From Lachnospiraceae bacterium (GTDB lineage: Bacteria; Bacillota; Clostridia; Lachnospirales; Lachnospiraceae): DNA of 64,000 nt. Both the position numbers and the translations under genes were made by a program. Below, piece by piece: positions 1,520 through 63,927 of the stretch (positions within the stretch are counted from its first letter, which is position 1; the number at the start of each line of letters is the position of its first letter). The stretch covers positions 24,275 through 88,274 of the forward strand of contig JAKSPD010000006.1 of assembly GCA_024405115.1 (NCBI GenBank), read 5' to 3'. Below the pieces are notes generated by a model. The model saw nothing but the letters and a program-made list of their open reading frames with translations. It did no database searches and was not told the origin of the DNA.

Positions 1520-1526
1520 TAGCGTA

Positions 1527-1700
1527 CAAATAAAGAGGTGGAACTCCGGTGAGATTCCGGGACTGTCCCGCAACGGTAATGGCATTTATGCATAAGTCCG
1601 GTCTTCCTGTTGACAACGCCCTGCGACGGATGGGGTGGTCAATACATTGGGAAGAGAGTTTAAGCTCTCTTTTTTGTTACACATCACTGGAAGGTGCCCT
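1527..1700 (+). promoter_or_regulatory. Cobalamin (AdoCbl) riboswitch
   Basis: Contains the conserved core GGTGAGATTCCGGGACTGTCCCGCAACGGTAA (consensus GGUGnnAnUCCnnCnnGnCCCGCnACnGUaA). A B12-box-like segment follows. It sits in the 5' leader of a btuF-like gene and ends in an intrinsic terminator (expression platform). Confidence 0.8.
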
Positions 1701-7032: not shown

Positions 7033-7141
7033 CGTGGATTTGCAACCAAAACAAAGCTGAAATCGGCCACATGATCAATTAAGTCTTGAATCAACGCGAA
7101 AATTGCTTATATGACTGCCGCGAATGCGCATCGGCGCGAGC

Positions 7142-7422
7142 CATGTAGTGGGAAAGATAAAAAAACGGCAAATGTCCCATTACAAGTAGTGGGAAAAGTG
7201 TCGACAAAGCGAAATGTCCCACTACAAAGTTTCTTAAAAAGGTCAGTTAATAGTGTTAAAATAGTGGGCCAAATGCCATTTGCTCCAAATGTCCCATTAT
7301 AAAAGCATGAATATAAGAGCATTTATTTAATAAACGTAGTGGGACTAACCCCGAAAAAAGCAAATGTCCCATTACAAGTAGTGGGCCAAACCTCAAAAAT
7401 GATAAATATCCCACTACAACAT
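7142..7422. repeat. Structured intergenic repeat element, copy 1: alternating-orientation GGGAC half-sites plus two 26-bp palindromes
   Basis: Half-sites are TAGTGGGAC(AT) (R) and ATGTCCCAYTA (L). Positions: 7145 (R), 7214 (L), 7262 (R), 7289 (L), 7337 (R), 7407 (L). Full palindromes ATGTCCCATTACAAGTAGTGGGA at 7172-7198 and 7364-7390, 192 bp apart. The layout is the same as at 28261-28536. Confidence 0.8.
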
Positions 7423-7472: not shown

Positions 7473-7880
7473 ATGATTTTAGTAACAGGAAGCGAAGCTT
7501 CAGGAAAGAAAACATATGTAAGAAGTCTCGGATTTACGGATGAAGAAATGTCCTACGATCCGTATTCGGACGCGCCTGTAATTCTTAACGTGGAACGCTC
7601 AGTTTTTGAGGCGCTTCGTGCCGCGGAAGAGGAAGGGCTTACCGCCGATGAAAGAGTGGCACGGACTGAAAAGGCAAAAATAAATGAAGCTGCCCTTTTA
7701 TTCGAGCAGCTTAAGGATAAAAAAGTTGTTACGATTAATGAAGTGGGAAGCGGTGTCATCCCCGCAAACCGTGCGGAACGCATCGGCCGTGAGGCGTCAG
7801 GACGTCTTTCAGTGCTTCTGGCAAAAGAGGCGGAGCAGGTGGTGCGCATGGTATGCGGCATTCCGATAATTCTTAAATAA
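7473..7880 (+). CDS. CobU-like P-loop protein (short paralog of adenosylcobinamide kinase/guanylyltransferase)
   Basis: 135 aa. P-loop GSEASGKKT. The C-terminal INEVGSGVIPANRAERIGREASGRLSVLLAKEAEQVVRMVCGIPIILK aligns with the C-terminus of the cobU product at 5648-6163. It lacks about 40 central residues. RBS GGGAGGG lies upstream. Confidence 0.55.
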   Translation: MILVTGSEASGKKTYVRSLGFTDEEMSYDPYSDAPVILNVERSVFEALRAAEEEGLTADERVARTEKAKINEAALLFEQLKDKKVVTINEVGSGVIPANRAERIGREASGRLSVLLAKEAEQVVRMVCGIPIILK

Positions 7881-24754: not shown

Positions 24755-24832
24755 CGAATAGGGGAAGTGAATAGGGGAAGTGAATAGATGAGTTGAATAG
24801 GGGAAGTGAATAGGGGAAGTGAATAGAGGAAC
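24755..24832. repeat. 13-bp tandem repeat x6 (GAATAGGGGAAGT)
   Basis: Six head-to-tail copies: four perfect, two variant (GAATAGATGAGTT, GAATAGAGGAACC). They begin 6 nt after the stop codon at 24749. Confidence 0.85.
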
Positions 24833-25309
24833 CGTCATGGGCAGGTGCGAGAACACCTGCCTCTGGCAAAACATCAAATCTTGTAGGAAACAGTTGTCAG
24901 AAGCGCATTTCATACAAGAAAATTGTAGGAAACTATGTCAATAAGAAAGGTTTCATACAATTTTTAAATTAGAAATTGTATGAAATTCACCTACACGCAT
25001 AAAAAAACTACAAGAGTATCGAACAAAACAACTATAAATAGTGCATTTTTTGTATGAAATACGTCTATTCAATAAAACAACTACAAAATTTGATCAACAG
25101 AGAATTTTACCACTCAACTGATATAACATGGAAACTGGTATTATGGTCTGTTTTCACGGTTTTTTCTAAAAATAAGAATATTTTTCTGTGGATTGCATAT
25201 TGAAAATGGCTTTTAAAGTTAGTAGGCTATATGCGTGAAGGCCGGAAGCTTAATGCCGCAACTTGTGGAGGAGGACTTCTGGTCGACAACAGGAAAGGAA
25301 GTATTTACA

Positions 25310-28168: not shown

Positions 28169-28260
28169 AACGCTCTGAAGTACTTTGAAAAGTTTGAAAT
28201 GCATCTGAAAAAGGGACTGCCGTATGAAACGGCGGTCCCTTTCATCGGAGAAGGCAGCAG

Positions 28261-28536
28261 GATAGTGGGACATTTTCCAAAAAGGCTTAATGTCCCATTA
28301 CAAATAGTGGGACATTAAAGAATATTGTTTTCTGTCCCACTATATGACGGCCTGTTTTTCGCTGTTTTTCCTTTAAAAATAGTGGGACATATTACGAAAG
28401 AAGAAAATGTCCCACTATAAATACACTAAAAACAGGTTAAATTTGACCGCTTGATAGTGGGACATTTGAAGAAAACGGCGGAAGTCCCATTACAAGTAGT
28501 GGGACTATCGTGAAAAGAGTAAAATGTCCCACTACA
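28261..28536. repeat. Structured intergenic repeat element, copy 2 (same architecture as 7142-7422)
   Basis: Half-sites at 28263 (R), 28333 (L), 28380 (R), 28407 (L), 28455 (R), 28524 (L). Full palindromes ATGTCCCATTACAAATAGTGGGACAT at 28290-28315 and AAGTCCCATTACAAGTAGTGGGACTA at 28482-28507, 192 bp apart. Confidence 0.8.
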
Positions 28537-29997: not shown

Positions 29998-32139
29998 TCA
30001 CGCTTTGTTTTCGATAAACTGTGCTTTATATTCCGCAGGCGTCATGTGGTAGAACTTTTTAAAGTTCCGGTAGAAGGTGCTTACGGTTAGGCCGCATTTT
30101 TCCGCGACTTCGGCCGCTTCCAGAGTGGTGTCCCTGAGCATGGCTCCTGCATTTTTCATTCTTATCTGTGTGAGATAGTTTGCGAAGCTCATACCGGTCT
30201 CATCATTCAGTATGGTGTTGATCGTTCTTTCGGAAAGGCCGTGCATACCTGCAATGACGGTGGCATTGAGCATGGAATCGTCATAGTGAGTATTGATATA
30301 ATTGATGATCTCTCTGTTTCTCAGAAGCTTTTCGTCAGACTGAATATTTGCTTTCTGTTCAAACAGATAGTCAACAAGTACTTTCAGCGCAGTTATATTT
30401 GCTTCTCCGGAGATGCTTCTTGCGTAACGGCATTCATTAAAGAAATCCTGCGGGATCTTTACAGCGGTGGCGGCATCTTTGATTATTGTCAGCAATGTGT
30501 AGAATATCTCCTGCGCCGAGGCTGCATTTTCTCTGATCACAGCATCGGCATAGGCGGAAAGCAGTGTCTCGATCTCCCTGATATTCCAGGAGAACAGGGC
30601 GGACTGAAATTCCTTGAAGTCCGGCATGTGAGTCTGCGGCTTCATATCATTTTCTTCATTATTAAAGATAACAAAACAGTTAGCTCCTTCCGGAAGGCTG
30701 AACAATGCCTGCTGAACAGCATCGGCGACACTGTCGATACCGTTAAAGGGTGCACTTACGCCGCATATAATGCGGCTTTTTTCTTCAAGCTCATTGTTGA
30801 TTCCGTCTATATATCCTTTCAGCGTAAATACCGCATCTTCATTGGAAGGAAGCACGATTCCTATCTCCTGACGGTTAAGCGGCTCGATAATAAAGCTGCC
30901 GGGCATGTTATGCTTGAGCTGATAAAGCATCATGCTCTGATATTCACTTTTATCCGGTGCGTTTTTATATCTTGCGACCGCGATTCTGGCACTTTCTGAA
31001 AAAAGCTCCGTATTGGAAGAAAGGTAGCTGAAGTCATCTTCTGTAAGAGGAATTCCGGAAAAGGCTTTTACCAGAAGATTTGATACGATCTTATCCTTCA
31101 TGCTCTTATTCTGTTCTTTTGATTCCGAAAGATAGTTATAAATCGTCACAAGCTCGTTGGAGGACTGCTTTTCCTTCGGTATCTGCTGTGCCTTGATCAG
31201 ATCCTGCACCGGCTGTACATTGATCTGTGAAAAGATCATACAGAGGAAGAGTGCCAGGGCGAGACTGAGCAGGAGCAGAACGTAAACATTTCTCTGTGCT
31301 TCCCTTGTGACGCTCTCAAAGTAGGATTTGGGAATGCTGATGGAAGCCGAAGCGTTAATAACAGGAATGTCGGCGGTCATGGAAACAAATCTGCCGCCGC
31401 TGTTTCCGTTCTTTGTACCGGGTTCTTCGGGAGCTGCTCCGTATTCGGCGAGGACACGGCCGTCGCTGCTGTTGTAAAGTCTGAAATAGATGCTGTCCGG
31501 AAGTGAATCCAGCTGAAAATAATCAAGAAGTCTGTTTTTTTCGATAAGGACAATATATGTGCAGACATCGGCCGATTCCTTAAGTGCACAGGTAAAAAAC
31601 TCACAGCCGGTACGCTCTCTGATATAGATCTCGCTGCAGGGGAACATTTCAAGACTGTGGTTTCTGGCTTCTTTTTTCAGGACTTCAGCCGGAATGTCTC
31701 TGTTCGTGTATTTATAGGAAGAAAGACATTCGCCGCTGGTCATATAGAAGGTGTACGGAGTTACGCAGATGTCGGATTTTCGCATATGAATGATGATATC
31801 AAACGCCGGATTGAAGTATTCCAGCTGATCCGACAGATCATTCATGGTGGAGGTGACAAAACGTGAATGCTCCGCAGTGTTGATACCGGTGAGGTAGGAA
31901 AGATCATGGAAGGTTCTGGAAACATTCATGATCTTCGGCAGATAGTAAAAGCTGTAAAGATCATTGGAAAGAGCCTCCGCATTATGGAGAAGAGAGGACT
32001 GGACCTGTTCCGTATATGATTTCTGCCACAGGGCGGATGTTTTTCTGAAAGAATAGATCTGTACGCATAAAAATATCAGGGTACTTATCAGAAAAGTGAA
32101 AAAACATCTCCAGAAAAGGGACAAATTTTTTAATTTCAT
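29998..32139 (-). CDS. Membrane-anchored AraC-family transcriptional regulator with extracytoplasmic sensor domain
   Basis: 713 aa. N-terminal TM (FFTFLISTLIFLCVQI), second TM at about residue 285, and a C-terminal AraC-type HTH (…FANYLTQIRMKNAGAMLRDTTLEAAEVAEKCGLTVSTFYRNFKKFYHMTPAEYK). Confidence 0.8.
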   Translation of the reverse strand: MKLKNLSLFWRCFFTFLISTLIFLCVQIYSFRKTSALWQKSYTEQVQSSLLHNAEALSNDLYSFYYLPKIMNVSRTFHDLSYLTGINTAEHSRFVTSTMNDLSDQLEYFNPAFDIIIHMRKSDICVTPYTFYMTSGECLSSYKYTNRDIPAEVLKKEARNHSLEMFPCSEIYIRERTGCEFFTCALKESADVCTYIVLIEKNRLLDYFQLDSLPDSIYFRLYNSSDGRVLAEYGAAPEEPGTKNGNSGGRFVSMTADIPVINASASISIPKSYFESVTREAQRNVYVLLLLSLALALFLCMIFSQINVQPVQDLIKAQQIPKEKQSSNELVTIYNYLSESKEQNKSMKDKIVSNLLVKAFSGIPLTEDDFSYLSSNTELFSESARIAVARYKNAPDKSEYQSMMLYQLKHNMPGSFIIEPLNRQEIGIVLPSNEDAVFTLKGYIDGINNELEEKSRIICGVSAPFNGIDSVADAVQQALFSLPEGANCFVIFNNEENDMKPQTHMPDFKEFQSALFSWNIREIETLLSAYADAVIRENAASAQEIFYTLLTIIKDAATAVKIPQDFFNECRYARSISGEANITALKVLVDYLFEQKANIQSDEKLLRNREIINYINTHYDDSMLNATVIAGMHGLSERTINTILNDETGMSFANYLTQIRMKNAGAMLRDTTLEAAEVAEKCGLTVSTFYRNFKKFYHMTPAEYKAQFIENKA

Positions 32140-32257
32140 GGCAATATCTCCGAAAATGAACGTGCTAAGTGAAATTTATCATTTTCGGAAGAAAAAATCT
32201 ATTATAATTTCTCATATTCGGATATTAATTTGAGAAAACAAAGTTATTGCGGCAAAA

Positions 32258-32388
32258 TTCCGGATATGAAAATAACTGTTCCGAATTTGCAAATACCTTA
32301 TCTCCGCAATTACCGGTCTGTAAAATCAGCTTCCGGAATTGCAAATTACAGGCGGAATATTGAATATTGCCTGCCGGATTTGAAAACA
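32258..32388 (+). promoter_or_regulatory. Five direct repeats (TTCCGGAWTTGMAAAT-like) in the divergent AraC/peptide-ABC promoter region; candidate AraC operator
   Basis: Copies at 32258-32274, 32279-32298, 32331-32350, 32351-32371 and 32371-32388. Confidence 0.45.
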
Positions 32389-32458
32389 GTAGGATAGAAG
32401 CGTATCAAATGCATCGTGTCCGCAGAAAGCGGATACAGATAAACAAGGAGGAAAAGTA

Positions 32459-45509: not shown

Positions 45510-45720
45510 ATTTGTAATAAACAGCTTAGCAGGCGTTATTTATTACAAAGGAATTGTAATTATTGATGGTCAGCGGGATGTTTTATTACAATTATTGTCT
45601 GTGGGTTTTGTAATAAAGTGCTGTCACGTGAGGCAGTTATTACAATTTAACCTCAGAAAAATGGTCATTTTGAAGAAAAACTTGTAATAATTCAATGCCA
45701 GAAGCAGAAAAGTTACAAGA
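45510..45720. repeat. Intergenic array of 8 alternating-orientation TTGTAATAA/TTATTACAA motifs
   Basis: Copies at about 45512, 45540, 45554, 45584, 45609, 45638, 45682 and 45712, with alternating orientation and 14-44 bp spacing. A CACGTG-centred imperfect palindrome sits at 45620-45636. Confidence 0.6.
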
Positions 45721-46540: not shown

Positions 46541-46670
46541 AAGAATGAAATAATCGGGACATTCAGCCTTAAACAAATTGAAATAATCGGGAAATACACT
46601 ATAATTTATATTGAAATAATCGGGGAAAATGCTATAATTTATAATGAAATAATCGGAAAGGATGGCACGA
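46541..46670 (+). repeat. About 33-bp tandem direct repeat x4 (core TGAAATAATCGG) with embedded TATAAT hexamers, upstream of the AAA-ATPase gene
   Basis: Cores at 46544, 46578, 46611 and 46644, spaced 34/33/33 bp. Copies 2 and 3 include CTATAATTTAT. The repeats end at the ATPase start codon. Confidence 0.75.
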
Positions 46671-48002
46671 TGCATGTTCAGACGTAAGATATATGAAAGC
46701 CTTCTTGATTGGAAAAAACATTACAACGGCAAGTATGCCTGCCTGATAGAAGGGGCAAGGCGTGTCGGAAAAACAAGTATAGTGGAAGAATTTGCAAAAA
46801 ACGAATATAAGTCATATATACTGATTGATTTTTCAAAGGCATCAAAAGAAATCCTGGAAAGTTTTGACAGCATCGGTGATTTAAACTATTTCTTTTTGAA
46901 GCTGCAGACCGAGGCGGGAATAAATCTGTACACAAGAGAATCTGTAATAATATTTGATGAAGTTCAGCTATTCCCCAAAGCAAGGCAGGCGATTAAACAT
47001 CTTGTAGCTGATGGGAGATATGATTATATTGAGACGGGATCACTGATTTCAATAAGGAAAAACACCAAGGATATCTTAATACCTTCGGAAGAGCATAGGA
47101 TTTCAATGTATCCGATGGATTATGAAGAGTTTACATGGGCACTTGGCAGTTCCCTTGATCCGTTGAGGAATTTTTTTGACTCGGGGCTTCAGCTCGGTGA
47201 GACTGTAAACAGAAATCAGATGCGACGTTACAGACTCTATCTTGCGGTGGGGGGCATGCCTCAGGCAGTAGAGGCTTATGTTGAACACAGGAGTTTTGAT
47301 GAGATAGATGACATAAAAAGAGAAATAATTGCACTTTATCATGAAGATCTGTATAAGCTGGATCCTACAGGAAGGCTTTCAATGGCTTATGATGCTATTC
47401 CGGGTCAGTTGGCAGGAAAGAGGAAAAGGTTTATTTTGAGTGCCGCTACGGGTAAGGAGAAGGAAGAAAAAGATATTGAAAGAATAAATGATTTTGCGGA
47501 TTCGAAGATGGTCCTGCCCTGCTATAATGTAACAAAGCCTGCAGTGTCACTTTCGCAGACAAAAGATATTGAAACATACAAGCTATATCTTTCAGATGTC
47601 GGGCTGTTTACAACAATGCTTTTTAATGATTCAGATGACAGTCATGAAGACATATATAAAAAGCTTCTCAGCGATAAACTGGATGCAGACCTTGGTTATT
47701 TATATGAGAACGCCGTGGCTCAGGAAATTATGTCAAAAGGCAGAAAACTGTATTATCATACGTGGCAGAAAGAAGGCAGCACGCATTCTTATGAGGTTGA
47801 CTTCCTGATAGCAAAGAACAGAAAAATTATCCCAATCGAAGTCAAATCATCAAAAGTCAGGCCGCATAAGTCCATGGATGAGTTCTGCAGGAAATATTCA
47901 AAAGATGTTGGTGAAAGATATATTCTTTCAAAAAAGGATGTATCAAAAGATGGTATGCTGCAGTTGAAGCCATTATATATGGTGCAGTATGTTGTTGAGT
48001 AA
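46662..48002 (+). CDS. AAA+ ATPase with DUF4143 C-terminal domain (COG1373-type ATP-binding protein)
   Basis: Walker A GARRVGKTS, Walker B IIFDEVQ. The C-terminal half resembles DUF4143. ATG 46674 is an alternative start. Confidence 0.75.
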   Translation: MARCMFRRKIYESLLDWKKHYNGKYACLIEGARRVGKTSIVEEFAKNEYKSYILIDFSKASKEILESFDSIGDLNYFFLKLQTEAGINLYTRESVIIFDEVQLFPKARQAIKHLVADGRYDYIETGSLISIRKNTKDILIPSEEHRISMYPMDYEEFTWALGSSLDPLRNFFDSGLQLGETVNRNQMRRYRLYLAVGGMPQAVEAYVEHRSFDEIDDIKREIIALYHEDLYKLDPTGRLSMAYDAIPGQLAGKRKRFILSAATGKEKEEKDIERINDFADSKMVLPCYNVTKPAVSLSQTKDIETYKLYLSDVGLFTTMLFNDSDDSHEDIYKKLLSDKLDADLGYLYENAVAQEIMSKGRKLYYHTWQKEGSTHSYEVDFLIAKNRKIIPIEVKSSKVRPHKSMDEFCRKYSKDVGERYILSKKDVSKDGMLQLKPLYMVQYVVE

Positions 48003-63810: not shown

Positions 63811-63879
63811 TCAAGTGGTACCTTTTCAGGCGCGGACTTTTGTGGTCACTTGTAAAAGTTAATTCCACTTTGTAAGATT

Positions 63880-63927
63880 AAATTCCACCTTGTAGGAGGA
63901 AATTCTATGGGGTGGAATTTTTTTGTT
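63880..63927 (+). terminator. Intrinsic terminator after the GNAT gene
   Basis: AAATTCCACC…GGTGGAATTT stem followed by TTTTTTGTT. Confidence 0.6.

What the first reader, a model, noticed from the sequence alone, without database searches (positions are those of the whole stretch)
7142..7422. About 280-bp intergenic element built from alternating GGGAC half-sites and two 26-bp palindromes; present twice with identical motif spacing but diverged spacers
**Motifs and positions.** Both copies contain the same ordered series of sites. L is ATGTCCCAYTA and R is TAGTGGGAC(AT). Offsets relative to the first full palindrome are:
- R at -27
- L+R full 26-bp palindrome at 0 (ATGTCCCATTACAARTAGTGGGACAT)
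- L at +42/43
- R at +90
- L at +117
- R at +165
- second full palindrome at +192
- L at +234/235

Copy 1 occupies 7142-7422 and copy 2 occupies 28261-28536.

**Why it looks functional.** The sequence between the motifs is not alignable between the copies. That pattern points to selection on the sites and their geometry, as in a multi-site protein-binding or nucleoprotein-assembly region, rather than a recently transposed MITE. Orientation alternates regularly.

**Context.** Both copies lie between co-directional plus-strand genes: cobS to the CobU-like gene, and a sugar-phosphate isomerase to a NagA-like amidohydrolase. The 33-bp repeats at 46541 contain a related AATCGGGACAT core.

I do not recognise this as a described repeat family.
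Basis: seen in the sequence. Interest (0 to 1): 0.72.

Follow-up and report, generated by a model that had tools for sequence, protein, structure and literature searches.

The report
Modular hairpin-array repeat in Lachnospiraceae
The two 280-bp stretches are real copies of a non-coding repeat built from five 38-bp hairpin units. It is found only in one poorly sampled group of gut-type Lachnospiraceae, is present, absent, doubled or shortened between close relatives, and most resembles the clustered REP/BIME and BOX repeats of other bacteria rather than a gene-specific control region.

Summary
Both loci (7146-7416 and 28263-28534) carry five units of TAGTGGGAC(AT)-N16-20-(AT)GTCCCAYTA. Linkers are 4/37/37/4 bp, giving unit spacing 41-42, 75, 75, 42.

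Arms are 82-96% identical between copies. Loops and linkers are 39-51% identical, close to flank level.

New evidence changes the interpretation:
- At the cobS locus, two relatives have no array.
- One relative has two tandem arrays, each behind the same 15-nt leader.
- One relative keeps the geometry but has different inner arms (TAGTGCC...TGCACTA).
- At the second locus, one strain has only two units. The exchange lies inside the 12-bp GTCCCATTACAA shared by the two junctions.
- Another strain lost 10 bp of a linker.
- A second element type with the same 37/38-nt units and 42-bp doublet occurs twice more in the window.

Nothing like it was found in Rfam, 185,579 reference genomes, JGI metagenomes, viral contigs, phages or plasmids.

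Best reading: a lineage-restricted, dispensable, modular interspersed repeat of the BIME/BOX/MITE kind. The agent that moves or maintains it, and its genome-wide copy number, are unknown. A host-level DNA- or RNA-level function is not excluded.

The parts
7128..7142 (+). 15-nt leader GCATCGGCGCGAGCC just upstream of copy 1
   Evidence: Identical (15/15) in front of both tandem arrays of relative L079. Copy 2 has only CATCGG at the matching place (28243-28248).
7146..7416 (+). Copy 1: five-unit array, unit starts 7146, 7187, 7262, 7337, 7379 (spacing 41, 75, 75, 42)
   Evidence: Identical in 10 metagenome contigs of the same species.
7146..7182 (+). Copy 1 unit 1 (37 nt): TAGTGGGAA...GTCCCATTA
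7187..7224 (+). Copy 1 unit 2 (38 nt): TAGTGGGAA...GTCCCACTA
7262..7299 (+). Copy 1 unit 3 (38 nt): TAGTGGGCC...GTCCCATTA
7337..7374 (+). Copy 1 unit 4 (38 nt): TAGTGGGAC...GTCCCATTA
7379..7416 (+). Copy 1 unit 5 (38 nt): TAGTGGGCC...ATCCCACTA
7172..7197 (.).
   Evidence: GTCCCATTACAAGTAGTGGG is exact in both junctions of copy 1.
7364..7389 (.). Copy 1 junction 2: L-CAAG-R, 192 bp after junction 1
7225..7261 (+). Copy 1 linker 1 (37 nt). It ends in AGTGTTAAAA, a stretch kept in the cobS-locus arrays of relatives.
   Evidence: 0.73 identity to linker 1 of L079 array A
7300..7336 (+). Copy 1 linker 2 (37 nt)
28263..28534 (+). Copy 2: five-unit array, unit starts 28263, 28305, 28380, 28455, 28497 (spacing 42, 75, 75, 42). 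All R arms read TAGTGGGAC.
   Evidence: Strain variants: L065 has a 10-bp shorter linker 1; L066 has units 1 and 5 only.
28263..28300 (+). Copy 2 unit 1
28305..28342 (+). Copy 2 unit 2
28380..28417 (+). Copy 2 unit 3
28455..28492 (+). Copy 2 unit 4
28497..28534 (+). Copy 2 unit 5
28290..28315 (.). Copy 2 junction 1: L-CAAA-R
   Evidence: Left partner of the exchange that gives the two-unit allele in L066.
28482..28507 (.). Copy 2 junction 2: L-CAAG-R
28210..28242 (+). Context only: G+C-rich hairpin (AAAGGGACTGCCGT/ACGGCGGTCCCTTT) between the upstream gene and copy 2; possible terminator
   Evidence: inverted repeat I9. The terminator scan found only a minus-strand match here.
45512..45718 (+). 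Second element type of the same architecture ("type B"), copy 1. Four units TTGTAATAAA...TTTATTACAA of 37, 38, 38, 37 nt; spacing 42, 54, 74; termini CATCAAA ... ATTTGATCAA.
24881..25086 (+). Type B, copy 2. Four units TTGTA(G/T)GAAA...TTTCATACAA of 37, 38, 38, 37 nt; spacing 42, 53, 74; same termini but different inner arms.

Best explanation
**What it is.** A lineage-restricted, non-coding, modular interspersed repeat of about 300 bp, of the same general kind as enterobacterial REP/BIME clusters, pneumococcal BOX elements and MITEs.

**Layout.** A short leader is followed by five 37-38-bp palindromic units. Each unit has 9-13-nt arms (TAGTGGGACAT / ATGTCCCAYTA) around a 16-20-nt A-rich loop. 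The units are joined by linkers of 4, 37, 37 and 4 bp.

**Shown.**
- The whole five-unit module is the unit of inheritance and spread. It sits at two or more unrelated intergenic sites.
- It is dispensable.
- It changes by recombination among its own repeats: loss of three units by exchange inside the junction palindromes, tandem doubling, homogenisation of the two doublets, and slippage in linkers.

**Inferred.**
- The arms and the spacing are what a trans-acting partner needs. This could be a hairpin- or half-site-recognising transposase or nuclease in the manner of RAYT/IS200-IS605, or another DNA-binding protein. Alternatively, hairpin formation on one strand is what matters.
- Only element lineages that keep the arms and spacing persist, while loops and linkers drift.
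- Inner arms can switch as a set (GGGAC to CC/TG in L078; ATAAA versus KGAAA between the two type B copies). The outer pentamers (TAGTG...CACTA, TTGTA...TACAA) and the geometry stay.
- Any effect on neighbouring genes, such as hairpins inside an operon transcript, would be a by-product.
For: **1. Discrete module at unrelated loci.** Same order and spacing at cobS/cobU-like and at TIM-barrel/amidohydrolase.

**2. The geometry recurs in relatives.** L079 array A has spacing 42/75/75/42. L078 has 41/74/74/41 with 37-nt units, so the linkers are again 4/37/37/4.

**3. Present or absent at an orthologous, syntenic site.**
- L074/L075 have a 114-bp spacer between cobS and the cobU-like gene, and L076/L077 an 85-bp one, with no array.
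- The window, L078 and L079 carry one or two arrays there.
- The protein tree is (((L078,L079),window),L074),L076.

**4. Tandem doubling in L079.** Each array is preceded by the same 15-nt leader, GCATCGGCGCGAGCC, that precedes window copy 1. The element therefore has a defined end beyond the arms.

**5. Strain-level instability.**
- L066 carries U1-CAAG-U5 with identical flanks. The crossover lies inside the 12-bp GTCCCATTACAA shared by the two junctions.
- L065 lacks 10 bp of linker 1.
- In L079 array A the two doublets are 72/80 identical, against 53-57/80 in the window copies.

**6. Conservation pattern.** Arms are 91-96% identical, loops 45-51%, linkers 41-48%. This holds both between paralogues and between the cobS-locus arrays of the window and L079.

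**7. Same architecture with other arms.**
- The two type B arrays in the window share unit lengths, spacing and termini.
- Hairpin arrays with yet other arms occur in relatives L072/L073.
- That makes four arrays in 64 kb.

**8. No local coding partner and no known RNA family.** Pfam and Rfam.

**9. Literature parallels.**
- BOX elements are modular and vary between strains by gain and loss of modules (PMC3049150, read).
Against: - Genome-wide copy number is unknown. Only two type A arrays are seen in 64 kb, and I could not reach the rest of the genome.
- No clean target-site duplication. CAGGA flanks copy 2 on both sides, and CATCG-like strings flank both copies, but intergenic flanks in relatives are too diverged to define an empty site base by base.
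- No transposase, RAYT or recombinase was found in the window.
- One gain at the cobS locus followed by vertical descent explains the distribution. Mobility is therefore inferred from only two loci.
- A static, selfish copy should decay evenly. High arm conservation beside near-saturated filler needs either continued turnover or conversion, or selection on the arms at the locus. The second would favour a host function.
- Loops are A-rich on the sense strand: A 0.36-0.48 against T 0.14-0.36, with a background of 0.32/0.27. G-T mismatches outnumber A-C by 13 to 7. Both hint at a strand-specific, possibly RNA-level, role.
Confidence: 0.55

Rival explanations
1. Structured RNA. The array is transcribed with the flanking co-directional genes, or on its own. 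Its five stem-loops then act at the RNA level: protecting or processing the operon transcript, as shown for some REP, ERIC and Correia elements, or titrating a double-strand- or A-rich-loop-binding protein. This can coexist with a repeat-element origin.
For: - Both window copies lie between same-strand genes, and no terminator was predicted before copy 1.
- Either strand folds far better than shuffles, with z about -10.5.
- When arms change, some pairs change on both sides: 11 such cells against 4.0 in shuffles, and position 6 goes G-C to C-G in L078.
- Every non-Watson-Crick pair at arm position 3 is a G-T wobble on the sense strand: 7 of 23 units, with no A-C there.
- Loops are A-rich on the sense strand beyond background.
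Against: - Folding does not distinguish the strands: -113 against -107 kcal/mol.
- The CATTA variant is position-specific. It sits in the L arms next to junctions and is inherited, so it represents few independent events.
- In L078 pairing drops to about 6 bp, with mismatches at positions 7-8 in all five units.
- One type B copy lies between convergent genes.
- The array is dispensable in relatives with the same operon.
- No Rfam match.
- No expression data.
Confidence: 0.15
2. Host nucleoprotein site. Ten half-sites at fixed spacing are bound cooperatively by a dimeric sequence-specific DNA-binding protein. The complex regulates the downstream gene or organises local DNA.
For: - Arms and spacing are conserved against drifting filler.
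- Same-orientation sites fall at 0, 42, 117, 192 and 234 bp, near whole numbers of helical turns (sequence).
- A central A-run in the loops and phased T5 runs in copy 2 linker 1 could bend DNA.
- The concerted switch of inner arms in L078 is what co-evolution with a binding protein would give.
Against: - The neighbouring genes are functionally unrelated.
- The array is absent from relatives with the same gene order, doubled in L079, and cut to two units in L066.
- Spacing is altered by 10 bp in L065 and irregular in L079 array B at 39/86/62/42.
- In L078, R and L half-sites differ systematically from each other at position 7. That is not expected for symmetric half-sites.
- Three different arm sequences share the same geometry in one 64-kb window, which would need several paralogous binders.
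- No array-like match in 185,579 reference genomes.
Confidence: 0.15
3. Site-specific recombination substrate. The L-4 bp-R junctions (12+2+12 bp, like hix/gix or res site I; half-site TGTCCCAYTA resembles the resolvase TGTCYNNTA, recalled from memory) are crossover sites for a serine or tyrosine recombinase. The other half-sites are accessory sites. The array excises or inverts segments.
For: The only structural polymorphism seen at copy 2 is an exact loss of the 192 bp between the two junctions. The exchange point lies within the 12-bp GTCCCATTACAA at the junction centre. The junction is the best-conserved block, exact in all four window junctions.
Against: - No recombinase gene in the window.
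- No inverted variant among 13 contigs covering the arrays.
- The deletion is equally explained by slippage or short-homology recombination between direct repeats.
- The 10-bp linker deletion is a plain direct-repeat slip.
- TGTC...GACA spans 24 bp here, against 28 bp in res site I (sequence; comparison from memory).
Confidence: 0.06
4. Nothing special: a chance cluster of motifs, or a simple segmental duplication of one intergenic region.
For: Only two copies are visible in the window.
Against: - Motif clustering is far beyond chance.
- Flanks and filler are unrelated while arms and geometry match.
- Independent arrays with the same layout exist in relatives.
Confidence: 0.01

Closest known systems
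REP / BIME clusters of Enterobacteria and Pseudomonas, including REPINs (PMC3333891, PMC2817692, PMC3116915)
   Same: - Extragenic, roughly 35-40-nt palindromic units clustered at regular spacing.
- The conserved palindrome parts contrast with variable linkers.
- The number of units differs between loci and between strains.
- Several families with different sequences can share one genome.
- Families are lineage-specific.
- The density here, 4 arrays in 64 kb, is of the order I recall for E. coli REP clusters.
   Different: - Here only 9-13-nt arms are conserved around a long (16-20 nt) variable loop. REPs have a near-continuous G+C-rich stem with a small loop.
- The 5' GTAG is only partly present (G/A-TAG) and lies inside the stem.
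- The array is a fixed five-unit module with its own leader, not an open-ended Y/Z alternation.
- No RAYT is known for it.
- The host is a Firmicute. The REP/RAYT paper I checked (PMC3333891) does not mention Firmicutes, and I recall no such system described there.
BOX elements of Streptococcus pneumoniae and S. suis (PMC3049150)
   Same: - A Firmicute, non-coding, modular composite repeat with defined end modules.
- An internal module number that changes between strains.
- Predicted stem-loops if transcribed.
- Found in intergenic and operon-internal positions.
   Different: - No sequence similarity.
- BOX modules (boxA, boxB, boxC) are conserved over their whole length, whereas here only the arms are.
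- BOX has more than 100 copies per genome (from memory). The copy number here is unknown.
MITEs with internal or subterminal repeats (Correia, ERIC, RUP; plant CACTA/En-Spm-type subterminal motifs as an analogy)
   Same: - Short, non-coding and AT-rich, with ends that are inverted repeats of each other.
- Present or absent at orthologous sites.
- Motif arrays are conserved for transposase recognition while the filler drifts.
   Different: - No demonstrated target-site duplication.
- No cognate IS.
- The copies seen are old and diverged rather than near-identical.
res / hix-type serine-recombinase sites
   Same: Alternating-orientation half-sites at fixed spacing. The junctions are 12+2+12-bp palindromes. 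A deletion exactly between two junctions was observed.
   Different: No recombinase gene nearby. The half-site polarity of the R...L pairs is opposite to res subsites. No inversion variants were seen.
CRISPR arrays
   Same: Conserved, partly palindromic repeats alternating with non-conserved filler of fixed length.
   Different: The fillers are 4, 16-20 and 37 nt long in a fixed five-unit pattern. The same pattern occurs at every locus. There is no leader-end growth and no cas genes.

Membership tests
REP/BIME | Extragenic location | tested here: met
   All arrays lie between ORFs with Pfam-supported identities.
REP/BIME | Imperfect palindrome of about 20-40 nt that can form a stem-loop | tested here: inconclusive
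   Units are 37-38 nt with 83.8% of arm cells paired. However, the stem is only 9-13 bp around a 16-20-nt loop. The 26-bp junctions (11-bp stem, 4-nt loop, one conserved G-T) look more REP-like.
REP/BIME | Conserved GTAG tetranucleotide 5' of the palindrome foot (PMC3333891) | tested here: inconclusive
   Four of the ten window R arms are preceded by G, giving GTAG; four have ATAG and two AATAG. The tetranucleotide lies inside the stem, not 5' of it.
REP/BIME | High copy number (more than 100 per genome; PMC2817692 abstract) | not testable with these tools
   Only 64 kb of the genome is readable. Two type A and two type B arrays are in the window.
REP/BIME | Clusters of regularly spaced units, with unit number variable between loci and strains | tested here: met
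   Spacing is 42/75/75/42. Alleles with 5 and 2 units exist, and single and double arrays.
REP/BIME | Associated RAYT (Y1 HUH transposase) flanked by the repeats | not testable with these tools
   No such gene among the window ORFs scanned with Pfam. The rest of the genome could not be read.
MITE | Terminal inverted repeats | tested here: met
   The first R and last L are inverted repeats. In copy 2, TAGTGGGACATTTT / AAAATGTCCCACTA are 14 nt and 100% complementary (I8). Type B termini are ATCAAA...TTTGAT.
MITE | Target-site duplication | tested here: inconclusive
   CAGGA flanks copy 2 directly on both sides. Copy 1 has no such direct repeat at the array edge. GCATCGGCG / GCATCCGCC lie 4 and 30 nt outside it. 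Empty sites in relatives are too diverged to align.
MITE | Presence/absence polymorphism at orthologous sites | tested here: met
   At the cobS locus the array is present in the window, L078 and L079, and absent in L074-L077. One gain suffices on the tree.
MITE | Cognate autonomous IS with matching ends | not testable with these tools
   None in the window. blastn of copy 2 found nothing in phages or plasmids.
BOX element | boxA-boxB(n)-boxC modules with conserved sequences | not tested
   No comparison with boxA, boxB or boxC sequences was run. The layout differs by inspection: no end modules conserved over their whole length, and a fixed set of five units. Only the modular principle is shared (for the BOX definition).
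CRISPR | Direct repeats separated by unique spacers of about 30-40 nt, plus cas genes | tested here: not met
   Filler lengths are 4, 16-20 and 37 nt in a fixed pattern. No cas domains among the ORFs scanned.
Any Rfam RNA family | Score at or above the gathering threshold | tested here: not met
   The only hit in the whole window is the AdoCbl riboswitch at 1524-1644. E-value mode over both arrays gives only sub-threshold noise.
Serine-recombinase res/hix site | Adjacent or cognate recombinase, with inversion or resolution products | tested here: inconclusive
   A resolution-like product exists (L066). No recombinase gene and no inversion variants were found.

The most novel reading that the evidence does not exclude
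The arrays are not junk. They would be host-maintained five-hairpin scaffolds whose arms co-evolve with an as yet unknown lineage-specific partner. That partner could be a hairpin- or half-site-binding protein, for example a Firmicute counterpart of the REP/RAYT partnership, or a new ribonucleoprotein or nucleoprotein system. Purifying selection would keep arm sequence and 4/37/37/4 geometry at fixed chromosomal sites. Inner arms would be re-specified as a set when the partner changes (GGGAC to CC/TG in L078; ATAAA versus KGAAA in type B).
Probability: 0.2. Interest if true: 0.7.

Novelty: new variant of a known kind. Interest (0 to 1): 0.45.

Why it matters
Clustered palindromic repeats such as REP/BIME and REPIN, with their domesticated transposases, are well studied in Proteobacteria. 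To my knowledge they are essentially undescribed in Clostridia and Lachnospiraceae, which dominate gut communities and are known mostly from fragmented MAGs.

A family with a fixed five-unit module, conserved arms and geometry but free filler, and set-wise switching of the inner arms would be useful in several ways:
- It offers a tractable case for asking what maintains such repeats: a replicator-level or a host-level constraint.
- It is a source of strain-level structural variation. Three of the ten contigs covering copy 1 start inside the array.
- It is a possible handle on an unknown hairpin-binding enzyme.

If it turns out to be just a low-copy decaying repeat, it is of local interest only.

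Tried and rejected
**Searches for the motif elsewhere**
- *Literature search for the 9-mers:* only primer noise.
- *Unit pattern in viral contigs:* single conserved hairpins in unrelated large-phage contigs, with no arrays.
- *Unit pattern in 185,579 reference genomes:* 39 loci, about or below my hand estimate of the chance number. None is array-like and none is the source genome. The multi-copy hits (Acidocella, an alphaproteobacterial MAG, Bacillota MAG KA22) are other single-hairpin repeats between housekeeping genes.
- *Junction pattern:* one chance hit in JGI metagenomes and none in viral contigs.
- *blastn of copy 2 against plasmids and phages:* nothing.

**Attempts to find more copies in this genome**
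- I searched 5.8 billion predicted proteins with a profile of the array's open frames, hoping for spurious ORF calls. The 45-aa profile shared words with one candidate and scored nothing. Gene callers do not call ORFs across these arrays, so this route has little sensitivity.

**Ideas tested and dropped**
- *Restriction-site idea (GGGAC is a BsmFI-type site, from memory):* GGGAC/GTCCC is not avoided outside the arrays, with O/E 1.17.
- *Promoter or terminator role:* scans gave nothing above shuffles.
- *Sigma-54 or NtrC-like reading of the flanks and of the L078 junctions:* the spacing does not fit (by eye). Dropped.
- *Relation to the 33-bp repeats at 46541:* rejected.
- *Whole-array long hairpin (linker 1 pairing with linker 2):* 43% complementarity in copy 1 by hand count, not convincing.
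- *Loop orthology between arrays:* corresponding loops are no more alike than non-corresponding loops. The exceptions are copy 1 against L078 (0.64 against 0.55) and the U5 loop.
Full report
**1.

Reading both stretches and searching the window for TAGTGGGAC with at most one mismatch gives 22 hits against 8.2 expected. None of 100 shuffles reached 22. Twenty of the hits lie in 7146-7416 and 28263-28534.

The repeat finder shows what the building block is: an inverted repeat TAGTGGGAC(AT)-N16-20-(AT)GTCCCAYTA of 37-38 bp. It is present five times in each stretch. Start-to-start spacing is 41, 75, 75, 42 in copy 1 and 42, 75, 75, 42 in copy 2.

Copy 2 is crisp, and copy 1 has degenerate R arms (GGGAA, GGGCC). 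In an ungapped register the two copies are 82-91% identical in the arms, 39% in the loops, 42% in the linkers and 35% in the flanks.

The 33-bp repeats at 46541-46656 are a separate tandem repeat upstream of an AAA_14/DUF4143 ATPase. Only the first of them contains GGGACAT, so I do not regard them as related.

**2. It is not a described family and is not found outside one small lineage**

- Rfam finds only an AdoCbl riboswitch in the window and nothing meaningful over the arrays in E-value mode.
- The unit pattern gave 39 loci in 185,579 reference genomes, about or below my hand estimate of the chance number. None has more than an isolated hairpin.
- The junction pattern gave one chance hit in JGI metagenomes and none in viral contigs.
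- blastn of copy 2 finds nothing in phages or plasmids.

The source is a Lachnospiraceae MAG (GCA_024500545.1; CobS is MCQ2400940.1). It is apparently not readable in the reference collection. The closest relatives exist only as short Logan and ENA metagenome contigs.

**3. What relatives show at the cobS locus**

The same species gives ten contigs with an identical copy 1. Three of them start inside the array.

Four further lineages with the same gene order (CobT, CobU, CobS, CobU-like, EamA) were recovered.
- **L074/L075 and L076/L077** have only 114 and 85 bp between cobS and the cobU-like gene, with no array.
- **L078** has a five-unit array with 37-nt units and linkers of 4/37/37/4 bp. 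Its arms read TAGTGCC...TGCACTA. Only the outer TAGTG...CACTA is shared with the window.
- **L079** has two arrays in tandem.
  - Array A is canonical, with spacing 42/75/75/42.
  - Array B is a variant: TTAGTGGG...CCCACTAA, ACGT linker, spacing 39/86/62/42.
  - Each is preceded by GCATCGGCGCGAGCC. That 15-mer also precedes window copy 1 at 7128-7142 (15/15).

CobS and CobU-like identities give the tree (((L078,L079),window),L074),L076. One gain of the array in the inner clade would therefore suffice. L078 and L079 are close sisters (93-94% protein identity) yet carry different arm sets.

Window copy 1 and L079 array A are 91-96% identical in the arms, 51% in the loops and 48% in the linkers. 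That is about the same as paralogous copy 1 against copy 2.

**4. What strains show at the second locus**

- **L065** (99% protein identity) has all five units but lacks one of two 10-bp direct repeats in linker 1, so 75 becomes 65.
- **L066** has identical flanks but only U1-CAAG-U5. The left side is of junction-1 type and the right side of junction-2 type. The exchange therefore happened within the 12-bp GTCCCATTACAA shared by the two junction palindromes.
- **More distant relatives (L067-L073)** have other downstream genes and no type A array. L072 and L073 carry arrays of hairpins with quite different arms (AATACACAAA-N20-TTTGTGTATT).

**5. The window holds a second element type with the same architecture**

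At 45512-45718 and at 24881-25086 there are four units TTGTA...TACAA of 37, 38, 38 and 37 nt. Spacing is 42, 54, 74 in the first and 42, 53, 74 in the second. Both share the termini CATCAAA ... ATTTGATCAA and a partly alignable first loop. The inner arms differ between the two copies: ATAAA/TTTAT against (G/T)GAAA/TTTCA.

This makes four arrays in 64 kb. Both types show the same rule: unit size, the 42-bp doublet and the outer pentamer are kept, while the inner arms are specific to the copy.

None of the window ORFs scanned with Pfam carries a transposase, recombinase or Cas domain.

**6. Structure or sequence?**

On 23 units, 83.8% of arm cells pair. Cells changed on both sides number 11, against 4.0 in shuffles (0/500). 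Almost all of these come from the single L078 lineage (position 6 G-C to C-G, position 9 C-G to A-U). In L078, positions 7-8 are mismatched in every unit.

R and L in L078 differ systematically at position 7. In the window and L079 array A, the L arms next to junctions are always CATTA. The units therefore look like copies of an asymmetric master rather than independently optimised symmetric half-sites.

Loops have a weak consensus with a central A5-6 run. On the sense strand they are A-rich: A 0.36-0.48 against T 0.14-0.36, with an intergenic background of 0.32/0.27. Both strands fold equally well, with z about -10.5.

This leaves a single-strand (RNA or ssDNA) role possible but unproven.

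**7. Interpretation**

- **Shown.**
  - A discrete five-unit module with a defined leader occurs at unrelated sites.
  - It is dispensable.
  - It is doubled, shortened or altered between close relatives by recombination among its own repeats.
  - It coexists with a sister element type of the same architecture.
- **Parallels in the literature.**
  - REPs are conserved while their linkers are highly variable, and the number of tandem BIMEs differs from locus to locus and from strain to strain (PMC3333891).
  - BOX elements are modular and vary between strains by gain and loss of modules (PMC3049150).
- **Inferred.**
  - Arms and geometry are kept because a trans-acting partner, or hairpin formation, requires them.
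  - The module spreads by an unknown transposition-like process.
- **Against.**
  - Copy number is unknown.
  - No clean target-site duplication was found.
  - No enzyme was identified.
  - Strong arm conservation beside near-saturated filler at an apparently vertically inherited site could also mean selection for a host function.

I put 0.55 on the interspersed-repeat reading, 0.15 each on an RNA-level and a DNA-binding host function (both can overlap with it), and 0.06 on a dedicated recombination site.

**8. Novelty and score**

The element is not a member of REP/BIME, BOX, CRISPR or any Rfam family by the features I could test. It is a new variant of the known kind "clustered palindromic interspersed repeats", in a phylum where I know of no described example.

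It is interesting to specialists for three reasons: the fixed module, the contrast between arms and filler, and the set-wise switch of inner arms. With the present evidence it does not overturn anything.

Interest is 0.45. The most novel reading not excluded is a host-maintained scaffold that co-evolves with an unknown binder. I give it a probability of about 0.2 and would rate it about 0.7 if true.

Noticed in passing
window 45512-45718 and 24881-25086: Two copies of a second four-unit hairpin-array element ("type B", TTGTA...TACAA). Unit lengths are identical (37, 38, 38, 37), spacing is 42, 53/54, 74, and the termini CATCAAA...ATTTGATCAA are shared. The inner arms differ between the copies.
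   Followed up: partly
L073 2186-2320 and the end of L072 (about 2505-2545): Downstream of the TIM-barrel gene, relatives carry arrays of hairpins with other arms (AACTACACAAAA-N19-TTTTGTGTAGTT; AATACACAAA-N20-TTTGTGTATT; spacing about 53). Both contigs end inside them.
   Followed up: partly
window 24756-24831: A tandem 13-mer GAATAGGGGAAGT, 5.8 copies, directly after the ECF S-component gene. It is followed by a G+C-rich hairpin (24838-24862) and then the type B array.
   Followed up: no
window 46541-46656: Four 33-bp direct repeats (GAAATAATCGGG...) immediately upstream of an AAA_14/DUF4143 ATPase gene (46662-48002). They are unrelated to the finding and may be an operator or iteron-like array.
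   Followed up: partly
window 1524-1644: An AdoCbl (B12) riboswitch (59.7 bits) ahead of the BtuF/FecCD/ABC plus CobT-CobU-CobS salvage cluster that ends at copy 1.
   Followed up: no
window 7473-7880: The gene after copy 1 is a 135-aa second CobU paralogue. It matches only the C-terminal part of the CobU profile (positions 97-166). It is conserved next to cobS in all relatives, with or without the array.
   Followed up: partly
window 32230-32400: Several copies of TTCCGGA(A/T)TTGCAAAT-like motifs upstream of an SBP_bac_5 transporter gene (32459), next to a divergent AraC-type regulator (29998-32139, minus strand). They are probably regulator binding sites.
   Followed up: no
window 63849-63925: Three direct repeats of about 20 bp (TTGTAA..AATTCCAC), followed by the inverted GTGGAATTTTTTT. 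This looks like a terminator embedded in a small repeat after the GNAT gene.
   Followed up: no
L019, L030, L034 (Bacillota MAG KA22): A different interspersed hairpin family, (TA)GTGGGACAGAGGGGACAGGTCCATTTGTCCCAC(TA). Its loop is conserved and its outer arms are identical to the window's. It occurs singly or in pairs between housekeeping genes, for example between a pseudouridine synthase gene and a tRNA ligase gene.
   Followed up: partly
L016-L052 (Acidocella MAG 20 and an alphaproteobacterial MAG): The hairpin CTAGTGGGACACGGCATTTTCAATGACGTGTCCCACTAG recurs on many contigs, often within 100 bp of a contig end. It is probably a high-copy repeat that breaks those assemblies.
   Followed up: no
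L001, L002, L006, L008-L011, L013, L014 (viral contigs of 45-270 kb): A conserved hairpin TAGTGGGACGCTAATAC.CTAAC.GC.GTCCCACTA sits in a conserved context in a group of large phage-like contigs. It is unrelated to the finding.
   Followed up: no
L067-L070, downstream of the TIM-barrel gene: In these relatives the position occupied by copy 2 and the amidohydrolase gene holds instead a 76-aa gene plus a PIN-domain gene (VapBC-like). This region is a hotspot of gene-content change.
   Followed up: no
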